64,000 bases of DNA from Octopus vulgaris. Lineage: Eukaryota. The stretch spans positions 3,224,001-3,288,000 of the forward strand of contig OX597827.1 of NCBI GenBank assembly GCA_951406725.2. Direction: 5' to 3'. The notes beneath the pieces are model-generated. The model saw nothing but the letters and a program-made list of their open reading frames with translations. It was not told the origin of the DNA and ran no database searches. Shown piece by piece: positions 841-48,905 of the stretch. The first letter of the stretch is position 1; each line of letters opens with the position of its first letter. The position numbers and the translations under genes are program-made.

Positions 841-965
841 ATTTATCGCTGACGAGGAGAAAATTCTCATGAATTAAGTCTGAAATTGGGACCGATACGA
901 TAATAACAACATTTTTTCGAAATTTCTGTCAGCTTACTTCGAGACGCATGCTTATAGTGATAAAT
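841..965 (+). ncRNA. hammerhead-like motif, probably a degenerate Penelope pLTR
   Basis: CTGACGA at 849-855, stem II GAGAAAAT/ATTTTTTC, GAAA at 919-922, GTC at 928-930. Stem I does not pair in the canonical register. Confidence 0.4.
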
Positions 966-1200: not shown

Positions 1201-1597
1201 ATAGAAGTGGAAGTAGCAGAGAAGTAAATCTAAGACATTTCAATTTAAGAAGGAATTTAATAAAAGGATTTTAAAATTACATTAAGAAAATATTACTGGT
1301 TTTGGTGATGAATCTCATCTTATCAAATATCAGTAAAAATTTGAAGTAACAATAAATTTATCTTCTGTCTGGGGATCAAAAACAGTTTATATTCTGCCTG
1401 GGGGTCAAAATCAGTTTATCTTTTGTTTGGGGATATTTTCACTTCAAATTTTTATAAATTTTTACTGATATTTGATAAGATGAGATTCGTCATCGAAACC
1501 AGTAATATTTTCTTTATATCATTTTGAAATCTTTTTATTAAATTCCTTCTTAAATTGAAATTTCTTAGATTTACTTCTGCACTATTTCCACCTACAT
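1201..1597. repeat. foldback element: ~145-bp inverted arms around a 29-bp tandem repeat
   Basis: 1201-1347 is the near reverse complement of 1441-1597; the spacer holds TTTATCTTCTGTCTGGGGATCAAAAACAG about 2.7 times. Confidence 0.9.
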
Positions 1598-40714: not shown

Positions 40715-40749
40715 GTTTCTGACGAAGAGCTCCACTCGAAACGTTAAAT
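40715..40749 (+). ncRNA. minimal type I hammerhead ribozyme (Penelope-pLTR type) in a ~210-bp insert (40640-40850)
   Basis: GUUU-CUGACGA-A-GAG/CUC-GAAA-CGUU-AAAU: intact core, palindromic ACGU stem III, GUU cleavage triplet, stem I GUUU/AAAU. Confidence 0.8.
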
Positions 40750-41139: not shown

Positions 41140-42590
41140 GTGAAAGATTTTCAGAAGCCATAAAAACTACAGATACACAGGAAACTGATTTCTTCAAATG
41201 TCCTGGAGGCTCTCTAGAAGTAGTAGATAATTTCTGTTACCTAGGTGACCTAATTAGCAGTAGAGTGTACCAGAAGTGTAACTGCTAGAATAAGAAGAAT
41301 AACACGGAGAAAATTCAGAGAACCTCTGTTGGCAACAAAAAGTCTCTTTCTCCAAGTGAAAGGAAGATTGTATGATGCGTGTATACAAACAGCAATGCTA
41401 AATGGTAGTGAAATGTGATACCTGGAAGCAGAGAACATGTGAAGACTAGAGGGGGGTGGTGAAGGTCATATTCTCCACTGGATGTACAATGTCAGAGTAC
41501 ATGTTTGACAGAGCGGAAGTATATTATGAAAAAGTTCAGCATAAGGGGAGTTAGATGCAGTGTGCAAGAGAAAAGACTGCACTGGTTTGGTCATGTGATG
41601 TGTATGGATGAGGACAATTACATAAGAAAGTGTCAATCCACTTAAAGTGGATGGAACTTGTGGAAGAAGGTGACCTCCCAGGAAGACATGAGACAAAGTA
41701 CTAAAGGCTGATCTCAAAATGCTGAGTTTTACAAAGATGACAAAGGGCTGAGATATCCAATGCCTTGTTGTACTCAAGAAGACCCACCCACCACAGGAGA
41801 ATTGATATCCTAAGGCCACCTTGGTAATGATTGACCATGAGGGGCTCTCCCCCACCCACACTTCATCCCCAAACACCCATCACTTCCCTTATCACCTGAA
41901 AGCAGAATAGAAACATACAACATTCTCTGGCTTTCTCAGTTACTTTTCCTCTGCCCCAGTTACCTTTCTTCTCTCACCTGTTTCCACCAATCACCCCCTC
42001 CTTCCTCTGCCTTCTCTTCTCTCCCTTTGCTGCTCTCTGACATCAACACCTTGCTTACCTATTATCACCCTCAATGCTCTCACATATCTAACTCAACCTC
42101 CACCTCCAAGCCTCTATTATACTTCTTTCCATCACTTGCTAAAGTCACCGCAACTAACCCACTCACCCATTCTCACCACCCCTGATGTTCCTCGGTGATG
42201 GGGGCATATCCAAACACATCTCTGACATTATCTCTTTCACTATCACTCATTTTATCTTACACCCCAACTCACTCGCCATTGTTTTCCAAATGCAGTATTC
42301 CTGTATCTATTCTACAGCAAGACACCTATATCTGTCCTTTCTTTACCTTAAATGTCTCAACTGGTACAAAGCCATACTCCCTAAATACTACTCCTCTTAT
42401 CTCAGTTGAGGGACTTTTGTCATTCAAGGTACTTGACAACCTTGTTGGTGCTGGTACCATGTAAAAAGCACCCTGTATTCTTTGATTGGCATAGACATCA
42501 TGCCAAAGCAGACAATGGAAACCAGTGTGGTTCATGGCTTTACCAGCTCCTTTCAAATCGTCCAACCCAGATATTAAATGATGATGATTG
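41140..42590 (+). mobile_element. old RTE LINE 3' part: disrupted ORF end plus long 3' UTR and (GAT)n tail
   Basis: [21 protein letters not shown] and EKRLHWFGHVMCMD with many stops; tail CGTCCAACCC..ATGATGATG. Confidence 0.85.
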
Positions 42591-42619
42591 TGTGTGTGTG
42601 TGTGTGTGTGTGTATTGAC

Positions 42620-43212
42620 AATATTAAAAATAAGGATTTCTCCGAAGTAGCAATAGCATTACCTTCAATTCTATAACCATATACCACCTTTTAAGACCAA
42701 CACATGTTTCAATTGCACCAATTAATAATCATTGAAATTGCAACCCAACTATAAAACTGTGCAGTCTCTTCAGGGTCTAAATTTGAGATCCCTCGGTATG
42801 GCCATTTAATGATCTTCTATTCTAAAATCTGAGTTGCATCATTTTGAGCGGTCCCCTAAGTCAGACACAAACAATCTCTATTTCAAGTTCTCATTGGATA
42901 ATCATTTTCAGTCTGTCATTTCAAAAGCTTGTATAGTTTAAATTATAATTATTCATTTACACTTGGCAAATGTGAATTTCTTTATGTGCAAACATCTCAA
43001 TGCTTGTTCCTGTCTAGAATTTATTACATTAGCCTTGGATGTGAAAGTCCTGTAAAATTCTTCTAAACAGAGGTCACATCTATTGGTTCCAGGTCTGTAT
43101 GGTTTTACAGATTAATTCCCATTTAATTGTATAGTGCTTGTTACTGTCCTTAAAAGACCAGATTAATTTGCAAAGAACCATTTGGAACTTTATTTTTGTC
43201 TTTGAATGAACT
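42620..43212 (-). mobile_element. Penelope-like element 3' fragment: endonuclease C-terminus plus pLTR
   Basis: Manual translation with two frameshifts: SSFKDKNK / LCKLIWSFKDSNKHYTIKWELI / KPYRPGTNRCDLCLEE..VINSRQE..RCLHIKKF..*, stop at 42955-42953, hammerhead ~175 nt downstream. Confidence 0.82.
42694..42778 (-). ncRNA. type I hammerhead ribozyme with intact core
   Basis: AGACC-CUGAAGA-GACUGCAC..GUGCAAUU-GAAAC-AUGU-GUU-GGUCU: 5-bp stem I, 8-position stem II with one mismatch, short stem III, GUU triplet. Confidence 0.85.
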
Positions 43213-43828
43213 CAAATGATTTGTCAGACAGGCATAAGTTGGATAGTATGACAGAAGCTAGCCAAGTAGAAAAGACTACCCCTATGCTATTGTGTCTGTT
43301 TTGGCAGGGTTTTTACAGCTGGATGCCCTTCCTAACACCAATCACTCCACACACACACACACATGCATGCACATACACACACAGATACATACATACACAC
43401 ACATACATACATACATACATACATTATAAAATTTTCAGGATCTGATAAAATCTAGGTACTTAAATAACAAAGATAACAAAAGCACCAAGATAGAGTCAGG
43501 GATGGCACACCTGTGCACTAACAGCATGTACAGACACACAAGCACTTACTGAAGTCAATACAGATGTGCCTTCCCAGTAATGCATACATTCACAAGTATT
43601 GACCAAATACACAATGTATATGAAAAGTCAGGGAAGCATCTAAGTGTGGTGAAGTATAAACAAGAACACAGATCAGTTGAGGTTCACCACATAAAAAAAA
43701 AAATCATTTTCTTCAGGTGAATTAAGAGTATAATTTAACATTTAGGATTTTTTACACAAATAGTACATAATGCATATTGACACTCACATCTTGTGCACTG
43801 CTAGCCTTTGTCTTTTGTTCTTTTGGAG

Positions 43829-44720
43829 TCATCATCATCATCATCATCGTTTAGTGTCCGTTTTCCATGCTAGCATGGGTTGGACGGTTCTACTGGGGTC
43901 TGTGAAGCCAGAAGGCTTCATCAGGCCCAGTCAAATCTGGCAGTGTTTCTATGGCTGGATGCCCTTCCTAACGCCAACCACTCCGTGAGTGTAGTGGGTG
44001 CTTTTTACGTGCCACCCGCACTGGTGCCAGACAGAGCTGGCAAACGGCCACGAACGGATGGTGCTTTTTATGTGCCACCGGCACGAGGGCCAGGCGAGGC
44101 TGGCAACGGACACGAAACGGGGCAGTGCTGGCAACGGTCGCGAAACGGAAAGTTCTCTTACATGCCACCGGCACTGGTAACACATCTGCAATTTCCATTG
44201 ATCGATTTCGATTCTGATCCTCACTTGCCTCAACGGGTCTTCACAAGTAGAGTTTCGACATGCCACCGGCACTGGTAACACATCCGCAATTTCCATTGAT
44301 CGATTTTGATTCTGATCCTCACTTGCCTCAACACATCTTCACAAGTAGAGTTTTGTGTCCCAAGAAGGGAAGGTATGCATACATAGGCTGGCTCCATCCC
44401 ATGTAGAAGGCCACGGGTTATGGACTCACTTGTCCTGCCGGGTCTTCTCGCGCACAGCACACTTCCAGAGGTCTCGGTCTCTAGTCATTTCCTCAGTGAG
44501 ACCTAAAGTTCGAAGGTCGTGCTTCACCACCTCGTCCCAGGTTTTCCTGGGTCTGCCTCTTCCACAGGTTCCCTCAACCGCTAGGGTGTGGCACTTTTTC
44601 ACACAACTATCTTCATCCATTCTCGCCACATGACCATACCAGCGCAAACGTCTCTCTTGCACACCACAAATGATGCTTCTTAGGTCCAGCTTTTCTCTCA
44701 AGGTACTTACACTCTGCCGA
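43829..44720 (-). mobile_element. 5'-truncated young RTE LINE: open ORF C-terminus, full 3' UTR and (GAT)n tail
   Basis: ORF 44426-44749 LREKLDLRSI..VQERRLRWYGHVARMD..RGRPRKTWDEVV..DRDLWK runs directly into the repeat-rich UTR. Confidence 0.93.
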
Positions 44721-44754
44721 GTGTGAGTGTGAGTGTGAGAGTGAGTCAATAAAA

Positions 44755-45070
44755 CAAATACCGGCTGAGAACTGGAGTCAATATAATTGACTTACCCCAA
44801 CCCTAAAATTGATGGCCTTGTGCCAAAATTTGAAGCCAATACTATAGGTGGTGAGCAGGAAGAATCATTAGCACACCAGGCAAAATGCTTCAAGGTGTTT
44901 CGTCCATTCTTACATTCTGAGTTCAAATTCTGCTGAGGTTGACTTCGCCTTTCATCCTTTCGGGGTCGATAAAATTAGTACCAGATGTATACTGAGGTCG
45001 ATGTAATCGACTGTGCCCCTCCCCACAAATTTCTGGCCTTGTGCCTACAATAGAAAGGATTATCAGTAAT
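44755..45070 (+). mobile_element. SINE B tail fragment followed by a full SINE B ((ATT)n-tail subfamily)
   Basis: B core plus tail GGCCTTGTGCCTACAATAGAAAGGATTAT. Confidence 0.82.
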
Positions 45071-47663: not shown

Positions 47664-48905
47664 AAAGTGAAGGTCAGCGAGGCATATCTAAAAAGGGTGA
47701 AGATGGTGTTGAAATCCAACCAGAATGCCAAAAATTTGATTACTGCAGTCAGACATAGTGTGTCCATCCTCAAATGAGGATGTCATTTCCTCAAAGGGGG
47801 AAATGTCAATACTGGATAGAAAGATGAGAAAGTTGATGATGCTGCATGGGACGCTACCCCCTAAAGCAACCATAAACAGATTGTATATGAAAAGAAAGAA
47901 TGGTGGCAGAGGACTAATTAGTATAGACCATTGTATAAGGAGTGAAAGGAGAACGCTTGCTGAGTATTTTATAAATAGTGATGAAGACCTGCTGCAATAT
48001 GCTGCAAAATATATGGGTGTAAATGCAGATGAAATGATGGGCAAGGAAGAGTTTAACCAAGGAGCTGAGGAGAAGTGAAAAGAAGACCTTCTTGAAATGA
48101 GAATGCATGGACAGTTTGAAAAGAATACACAAAACGTTAAGGATAATACAGCATCGTGGGCATGGCTTGAGTGAGGTGATTTGAAGCGTACTACTAAAAG
48201 CTTGATCAATGCTGCACAAGACCAGGCTCTTGCAACCAATTCAGTGAAGTATAACATCTATAAAACTTCTGACACCCAGAAATGGAGAAAGAGTGTGGAA
48301 AATGTGATCCACTTGGTAAGTGGATGTGATAGCTTTGCACAAAAAGAATACAAGCACCGTCACGATAACGTGTTTGTGTATCTTCATTGGCTTTTATGCC
48401 ATAAATACCAGTATGAAGTAACAGGGAATTGGTATGAGCATGTACCAAGTAAAGTTATGCAGGAGGATGGAAAAGTAATGATATTCTGGGACTATGATTT
48501 TCAGATGGATCGTGTAATCGAACACCGTCGGCCGGATATTGTCATATTGAATAAGAGAGACAAATACTGTCGGATCATTGATGTAGCCATACCAAATGAC
48601 ATGAATGTTGTGAGTAAAGAGGTTGGAAATATCACCAAGTGGAAATGGCAAGACTGTATGAAATGCAAGAGGGTAATGTAAAAGTCATACCAGTGGTGAT
48701 TGGAGCGTTGGGTTCAATCTCATTGAAACTTCAAAACTTCTTAAGGCGACTGGAAACCCAATGCAAGATTGATGCCTTGCAAAAAGCAGCTTTATTAGGC
48801 ACAACGCACATCTTAAGGAAAGTATTACCTGTCTGCGGTCCTTGTTGTGACTTGACAGATGACTAAAGACTCCGGTGCGTTTTTACCCACACTGTGTTAT
48901 GAAGG
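47664..48905 (+). mobile_element. R4/Dong-clade non-LTR retrotransposon, 5'-truncated and disrupted
   Basis: RLYMKRKNGGRGL, MHGQF, AAQDQALATN, HLVSGC (broken CCHC), RHD, RRPDIV..IIDVAIP restriction-like endonuclease, VIPVVIGALG, LQKAALLGT; (TAA)n on both sides. Confidence 0.92.

What the first reader, a model, noticed from the sequence alone, without database searches (positions are those of the whole stretch)
42620..43212. Penelope-like endonuclease tail linked to a canonical hammerhead, missed by the ORF track
The frameshifted peptide has the IW..K...Y.IKW, PY....CxLC.EE and N.R.E...CxH..KF pattern I recognise from PLE C-terminal GIY-YIG regions; from memory it is closest to the Naiad group. 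The hammerhead has a fully paired stem I and an enlarged stem II loop of about 40 nt, so it may still cleave minus-strand transcripts. This locus anchors the PLE interpretation of the other hammerheads.
Basis: partly seen in the sequence, partly recalled or inferred. Interest (0 to 1): 0.75.

Follow-up and report, generated by a model that had tools for sequence, protein, structure and literature searches.

The report
Decayed Hydra-clade Penelope retroelement tail
This is the broken last 600 bases of a jumping gene of the known Hydra group of Penelope-like retroelements, an endonuclease gene end followed by a hammerhead ribozyme motif that is predicted to misfold in this copy, so it is likely an ordinary dead repeat of a family not found in the papers searched.

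Summary
In detail: the minus strand carries a Penelope-like (PLE) endonuclease tail, stop at 42955-42953, and 180 nt downstream a type I hammerhead with an intact core, cut site 42699/42698. The clade call is wrong. Naiads have an N-terminal endonuclease and lack canonical hammerheads. CxxC..E / N.R.E....CxH at a C-terminus plus a 3' hammerhead define the Hydra clade (Craig et al. 2021). The tail scores 67.7 bits on a profile of 58 full-length Hydra-type relatives (500 shuffles, max 10.1). The copy is 5'-truncated (no RT, no GIY-YIG motif) and has two frameshifts. It is one of dozens of versions, the long laid pieces 82-87% alike, in public runs of two organisms. The 40-nt loop II is shared by relatives, longer than the 3-10 nt in 26 published Hydra hammerhead rows. 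Stem I is only 5 bp before a U-U mismatch, and a rival hairpin is predicted about 11 kcal/mol more stable, so this copy probably cleaves poorly. It differs from the described octopus family Hydra-1_Obim and shares no meaningful sequence with the window's two other hammerhead-like sites. Verdict: new member of a known kind, low interest.

The parts
43189..43230 (-). First surviving coding piece (the NH motif that follows the GIY-YIG arginine); 5' truncation point of this copy near 43227-43230
   Evidence: relatives diverge from the window behind 43227 (loose ends, 8 contigs in X1)
43110..43184 (-). Second coding piece (L.K.IW..K...Y.IKW), after a frameshift near 43188
   Evidence: tblastn HSP 43199-43110 to P0074 residues 612-641; relatives have extra letters behind 43188 (table 4)
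42953..43108 (-). Third coding piece: PY, CxxC..E, N.R.E....CxH..KF and stop codon; C-terminus of a Hydra-type GIY-YIG endonuclease, after a frameshift near 43110
   Evidence: phmmer 17 hits E<=1e-3; tblastn 43108-42962 to P0074 644-692 of 694
42779..42952 (-). 3' untranslated region upstream of the ribozyme; 42790-42870 varies between subfamilies
   Evidence: low depth at 42820-42845 and a joint 42786-42870 with 67 other letters in relatives
42694..42778 (-). Type I hammerhead motif: stem I 42778-42774 with 42698-42694; core 42773-42767; stem II 42766-42759 with 42718-42711; loop II 42758-42719 (40 nt); GAAA 42710-42707; stem III 42707-42700 (self-complementary, dimer-capable); predicted cut 42699/42698
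42614..42693 (-). 3' tail after the cut site; the element ends at about 42614-42625 (exact end uncertain because the read tool skipped the repeat)
42590..42613 (+). (GT)12 microsatellite abutting the element's 3' end
43236..43345 (.). Unrelated very high-copy SINE-like repeat flanking the truncated 5' end (SINE label recalled, not tested)
   Evidence: summed depth 193,725 at 43288-43313 against at most 8,618 over the element in X1

Best explanation
The locus is the 5'-truncated, twice-frameshifted 3' end (endonuclease tail, 3' UTR and type I hammerhead motif) of a Hydra-clade Penelope-like retrotransposon, one copy of a multi-copy family, and it is likely dead, its hammerhead being predicted to misfold. 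Shown here: the sequence anatomy, the homology, the breaks, the multi-copy status and the linkage of tail and hammerhead in other copies. Inferred from established PLE biology: a full-length parent of about 700 aa (RT plus C-terminal GIY-YIG) would have been transcribed through tandem pseudo-LTRs, the hammerhead would have cut the long RNA, probably helped by pairing of two self-complementary stem III segments as a dimer, and reverse transcription primed at an endonuclease nick near a microsatellite would have stopped early and left this 600-bp piece. Odds that this particular copy self-cleaves measurably: about 0.2-0.25.
For: phmmer of the 52-aa piece: 17 proteins at E<=1e-3 among 1.84 billion. 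A profile of 14 of those 17 gave 203 longer proteins at E<=1e-10, 120 listed. Of the 37 listed with 670 aa or more: RW[KR] 36 of 37, DK[TS] 37, Y.DD 37, CxCx4-6C 37, Y[IVY]G 34, CxxC..E 37, N..E....CxH 37, all in Hydra order with the endonuclease last. The three pieces read with X at each break score 67.7 bits on a tail profile of 58 relatives; 500 shuffles reach at most 10.1; best identity 43% over 90 aa. Fig. S7 shows this tail in all 9 Hydra rows and none of the 9 Penelope/Poseidon, Nematis or Neptune rows. Of 26 published Hydra hammerhead rows, 10 cut after U and 4 close stem II with G-U as here (my count from File S2), so these traits fit the clade. Up to 51, 45 and 59 contigs differ at one site in runs X1, X2, X4; ungapped contigs join tail and hammerhead (X4 record 23, 42679-43057, 65 differences); several opposite-strand joints recall the inverted arrangements of PLEs. 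Hammerhead-constrained fold -12.9 against -25.2 kcal/mol for the rival hairpin.
Against: RT, the RWK/DKT motifs, the CxCX5C linker and the GIY-YIG motif are absent from the locus, so membership rests on the tail and the hammerhead. No tree against other PLE clades could be built. Pfam gave no hit for the window pieces or for 5 of 5 full-length relatives scanned; direct word search with the 52-aa piece found nothing; Rfam has no hit. The flank is (GT)n, not the (TA)n typical of Hydra. The folding model ignores tertiary contacts and Mg2+, and no known active hammerhead was available for calibration; shuffling loop II alone still leaves a mean gap of 6.9 kcal/mol.
Confidence: 0.9

Rival explanations
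1. It is a Naiad remnant.
For: Octopus Naiad families are described (File S1), and Naiads are PLEs with GIY-YIG endonucleases.
Against: Naiad endonucleases are N-terminal, carry CCHH and lack canonical hammerheads. Here the motif ends at a stop codon followed by a UTR and a hammerhead, and 37 of 37 full-length relatives have it at the C-terminus. Naiad N-terminal regions seen passages have a different endonuclease end (E..WI..L.T..P.GLN).
Confidence: 0.01
2. It is a member of a short non-autonomous pseudo-LTR or retrozyme-like family derived from a Hydra element, copied as a unit rather than by truncation of full-length RNAs.
For: Depth peaks over 42950-43050 and falls toward the 5' side. Animal retrozymes are proposed to derive from PLE pseudo-LTRs (bioRxiv 2026.07.22.740005).
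Against: No tandem copy in the window. The fall in depth is gradual. Relatives run on beyond 43227 into letters that by eye read as an in-frame F-K-R-R, like the GIY-YIG arginine region (table 7).
Confidence: 0.07
3. The hammerhead is still active or has been kept by the host to cut minus-strand transcripts at this locus, possibly gated by the 40-nt loop II.
For: All core nucleotides are intact; the long loop is shared with copies about 17% diverged; stem III can pair with itself (duplex -6.0 kcal/mol); a 97% alike contig lies in a run guessed to be RNA (X12 record 8, depth 2.3).
Against: This copy departs from its relatives at 42779 (stem I) and 42720, both toward the rival fold (gap 11.2 against 5.9 kcal/mol). 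A dimer estimate of -31.8 loses to -50.4. The rival fold is not beyond chance (26 of 300 loop shuffles reach it; whole-fold z -1.93). No evidence of selection at this locus.
Confidence: 0.06

Closest known systems
Hydra clade of C-terminal EN+ Penelope-like elements (Craig et al. 2021, PMC8557442)
   Same: C-terminal endonuclease tail with CxxC before E and CxH after N; no CCHH histidine pair; canonical type I hammerhead in the 3' UTR shortly after the stop; short stem III; U at the cut site and before GAA; microsatellite flank.
   Different: Loop II is 40 nt against 3-10 nt in all 26 listed Hydra rows; flank is (GT)n rather than (TA)n; only the last ~600 bp survive.
Hydra-1_Obim (Octopus bimaculoides; File S7 and Fig. 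S7 of PMC8557442)
   Same: Same clade and architecture; CUGAAGAG core with a G-U closing pair and cut after U; shares PYR.GT and NSR.E.
   Different: Only 18 of 43 residues identical from PY to KF (by-eye count), about the level seen with the other relatives (36-43%); different 3' UTR, stems and loop II (8 nt). A separate family.
Naiad clade
   Same: PLE, GIY-YIG endonuclease, microsatellite targeting, present in cephalopods.
   Different: N-terminal endonuclease, CCHH motif, no canonical hammerhead.
Minimal type I hammerheads of PLEs and non-LTR retrozymes (PMC6155905, PMC7229834)
   Same: Type I topology with weak, self-complementary helix III, suited to dimer cleavage.
   Different: Single copy, not a tandem array; attached to coding sequence; long loop II. 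Long loop II has precedent in two PLE-X1 spike-moss motifs (about 29 and 35 nt, File S2).

Membership tests
Hydra clade PLE | Endonuclease at the C-terminus of the ORF | tested here: met
   Tail ends at stop 42955-42953 and aligns to residues 644-692 of the 694-aa P0074
Hydra clade PLE | [quoted passage not shown] | tested here: met
   Present in the window and in 58 of 58 relatives; Fig. S7
Hydra clade PLE | CCHH motif absent | tested here: inconclusive
   The two histidine positions region aligns to Hydra rows that lack it, but the cysteine-bearing GIY-YIG core is deleted from this copy
Hydra clade PLE | Canonical hammerhead in the 3' region | tested here: met
   Core, GAAA, NUH and three stems can be drawn; sequence motif only, activity untested
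Hydra clade PLE | RWK, DKT, divergent RT4, CxCX5C linker, no CxC/IFD | not testable with these tools
   Region missing from the locus; present in 36-37 of 37 full-length relatives for RW[KR], DK[TS] and the linker; the family's own full-length copy could not be fetched
Hydra clade PLE | Insertion into (TA)n (typical, not universal) | tested here: not met
   Flank is (GT)12; the paper says 'almost all families', and one listed family has no preference entered, so not treated as defining
Hydra clade PLE | RT phylogeny or clustering within Hydra | not testable with these tools
Naiad clade PLE | N-terminal endonuclease followed by CxC and RT | tested here: not met
   Stop codon and UTR follow the endonuclease tail
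Naiad clade PLE | Lack of canonical hammerhead | tested here: not met
   Three-stem motif present; definition
Non-LTR retrozyme | Tandem non-coding repeats each with a type I hammerhead | tested here: not met
   Single copy in the window, attached to a coding remnant; other genomic copies not mapped
Active type I hammerhead ribozyme | Self-cleavage at the NUH site | not testable with these tools
   Folding predicts a rival hairpin; contigs cannot show RNA ends

The most novel reading that the evidence does not exclude
This Hydra family carries a hammerhead whose 40-nt loop II acts as a built-in switch: loop and 5' stem II arm can zip up with the whole 3' half (GAAA, stem III and cut site) and keep the ribozyme off until a second copy or the element's own protein refolds it, so regulating when the PLE transcript is cut.
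Probability: 0.05. Interest if true: 0.55.

Novelty: new member of a known kind. Interest (0 to 1): 0.15.

Why it matters
Little for biology at large: the endonuclease-tail-plus-hammerhead layout is the described anatomy of Hydra PLEs, and this copy is a fossil. It adds a probable second cephalopod-type Hydra family to a small, poorly placed clade (27 families listed in File S1), with the longest loop II of the Hydra rows I could see. It also shows that Pfam and Rfam both miss such elements. Hammerhead function in PLEs is still called unclear (PMC8557442), so an intact family member with long- and short-loop variants would be a modest natural test pair.

Tried and rejected
Own-genome search: no genome held. 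Rfam at gathering score over the window: 0 hits; E<=10 over 42300-43300: 3 unrelated weak hits, no hammerhead. Pfam on three window pieces: 0; on 5 full-length relatives: 0 at E<=0.01. Word-index protein search with the 52-aa piece: 1 candidate, none significant. Second profile search for the family's own full-length protein: 68 hits, best 46% identity, none clearly the same family. Cluster look-up of 10 proteins gave names only for jellyfish (Sanderia) members. PDB sequence search: 0. ESM Atlas: best score 0.84, unnamed, a lead only. Metagenome pattern scan: 1 match, L001, rejected as chance because it lies in a bacterial-looking ORF with no blastn or tblastn similarity. Run search: no RNA holder listed; X12 is only guessed to be RNA. 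Earlier findings of the scan: none in 3 look-ups. Idea that G-U closing and a GUU triplet are decay: rejected, both occur in published Hydra motifs. Idea that the long loop is a private insertion: rejected. Idea that the rival hairpin is a selected switch: not supported, 26 of 300 shuffles match it. Constraining stem III as a monomer failed technically (2-nt loop), so monomer energies leave stem III open. The repeat finder output was dominated by microsatellites.

Full report
Setting. The window is AT-rich (GC 0.31-0.48) and full of microsatellites and interspersed repeats. No genome is held for it. I recall this repeat landscape as octopus-like; no call tested the host, and the runs that hold the stretch carry coded names.

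The peptide. The minus strand has three short coding pieces in three frames: 43230-43189, 43184-43110 and 43108-42956, followed by a stop at 42955-42953. So there are two frameshifts. Relatives have extra letters behind 43188 and diverge in register at 43110 (tables 4 and 7), so both look like small deletions in this copy. The last piece alone found 17 proteins at E<=1e-3 among 1.84 billion representatives. A profile of 14 of the 17 found 203 longer proteins at E<=1e-10, of which 120 were listed. Of the 37 listed with at least 670 residues, 36 have RW[KR], 37 DK[TS], 37 Y.DD, 37 CxCx4-6C, 34 Y[IVY]G, 37 CxxC..E and 37 N..E....CxH, in that order, the last motif within a few dozen residues of the end. 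tblastn of the 120 proteins on the window hit this locus only, best E=4.4e-11. A whole-protein profile of 58 relatives on six frames also hit only here. With X at each break the three pieces score 67.7 bits on a tail profile of 58 relatives; 500 shuffles reach at most 10.1 bits; best single identity is 43% over 90 residues. RT and the GIY-YIG motif itself are missing: the copy begins just after the position of the conserved arginine.

The clade. Craig et al. 2021 (PMC8557442; I saw passages, sections 6 and 11, and supplement parts 1, 2, 7, 52, 53, 58, 59) define Naiads by an N-terminal endonuclease with CCHH and no canonical hammerhead. They define Hydra by a C-terminal endonuclease without CCHH, RWK, DKT, a CxCX5C linker, CxxC and CxH on either side of E and N, canonical hammerheads and mostly (TA)n targets. 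In their Fig. S7 the window's tail pattern is in the 9 Hydra rows and in none of the 9 Penelope/Poseidon, Nematis and Neptune rows. One octopus Hydra family is described, Hydra-1_Obim. By eye it shares 18 of 43 residues with the window from PY to KF and has a different UTR and hammerhead, so this is another family.

The hammerhead. A strict scan finds this one site against a mean of 0.0 in 50 resampled windows; a looser scan finds 2 against 0.14. Stem I is 5 bp, then U-U, then 2 bp. Stem II is 7 of 8 pairs with a G-U closing pair and a C-A mismatch around a 40-nt loop. Stem III is 3 bp on a 2-nt loop, and its 8 letters pair with a second copy of themselves (-6.0 kcal/mol), the layout of dimer-type motifs (PMC6155905 and PMC7229834, passages seen). 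In File S2, 10 of 26 Hydra rows cut after U and 4 of 26 close stem II with G-U, so those are clade traits. Loop II is 3-10 nt in all 26 rows; two non-Hydra PLE-X1 rows have loops of about 29 and 35 nt (my counts).

Would this copy cut? The predicted minimum-energy fold is one long hairpin in which the 5' arm of stem II and part of the loop pair with the 3' arm, GAAA, stem III and the cut site: -25.2 against -12.9 kcal/mol for the hammerhead with stem III open, at 37 C; the order is the same at 20 C and with 208 or 333 nt of context. The ensemble gap is 11.2 kcal/mol. With the three letters that relatives mostly carry at 42720, 42779 and 42782 it falls to 5.9. Shuffling the loop gives 6.9 +/- 2.8, and 26 of 300 shuffles reach 11.2, so the rival hairpin is not beyond chance. 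A dimer estimate (-31.8) also loses to two rival hairpins (-50.4). The model lacks tertiary contacts and Mg2+ and was not calibrated on an active motif, so this is a prediction: about 0.2-0.25 that the exact copy cleaves measurably.

The family. I laid 4 of 24 listed runs. At 80% likeness 1040, 803 and 1013 contigs fit in three DNA runs of organisms A and B; these counts include the flanking high-copy repeat. At 42960 alone 51, 45 and 59 contigs carry another letter. Long pieces are about 82-87% alike, which points to an old family; a PLE expansion at Jukes-Cantor 0.2 is reported for O. vulgaris (PMC13282606, passages seen), relevant only if the host guess is right. Of 32 pieces shown (2934 not shown), 7 span loop II without a gap, and one joins tail and hammerhead over 379 nt without a gap. 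Two contigs have a short loop instead (table 5c). The selection favours copies like the window, so the share of long-loop copies is unknown. Several opposite-strand joints match the inverted arrangements described for PLEs. Cover starts near 42623 beside (GT)12, where the tool skipped the repeat, and falls off near 43230-43260.

Other hammerheads. Sites at 849 and 40719 (+) have no blastn match to this element and no Hydra coding remnant. The locus supports their PLE origin only by analogy.

Novelty. Five literature searches gave no paper describing this family or cephalopod hammerheads beyond PMC8557442. Repbase, Dfam, subscription papers, the supplement of PMC13282606 and the closed supplement of bioRxiv 2026.07.22.740005 (first fifth of the text seen) were not seen and may already hold it. 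Cervera and de la Pena 2014 is cited only through these papers. Verdict: a decayed copy of a probably unlisted family of a known clade; new member of a known kind; interest 0.15.

Noticed in passing
window 843-903 (+): Second type I hammerhead-like motif: 6-bp stem I, CUGACGAG core, U before GAAA and a 5-bp stem III on a 2-nt loop, which resembles Hydra-type motifs; stem II is degraded; about 60 nt after a (CA)n tract; no coding remnant nearby. Stem I forms in the minimum-energy fold.
   Followed up: partly
window 40719-40746 (+): Minimal hammerhead-like core (CUGACGA, short stem II, GAAACGUUA) with a decayed stem I; unrelated in sequence to the Hydra element.
   Followed up: partly
window 47740-48678 (+): Two stop-free stretches (112 and 168 aa) that look like the C-terminal part of a non-LTR retrotransposon ORF (recalled resemblance, not tested).
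   Followed up: no
window 41500-41800 (+) and 44429-44791 (-): Remnants with an RL.W.GHV.RM-like motif typical of RTE-type LINE 3' ends (recalled, not tested).
   Followed up: no
window 1207-1342 and 1456-1591: 136-nt inverted repeat, 90% complementary, 113 nt apart; possibly a MITE.
   Followed up: no
run X12, record 9 (42626-42703) and record 13: In a run guessed to be RNA, a relative's 3' end has depth 215.6, far above other pieces, and record 13 holds two parts of the element in opposite orientation; may be an expressed subfamily.
   Followed up: no
proteins P0018-P0195: 58 unnamed full-length Hydra-type proteins of 670 aa or more were recovered, more than the 27 families listed in 2021; Pfam gave no hit for 5 of 5 scanned, so the clade is larger than described and poorly covered by profiles.
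   Followed up: partly
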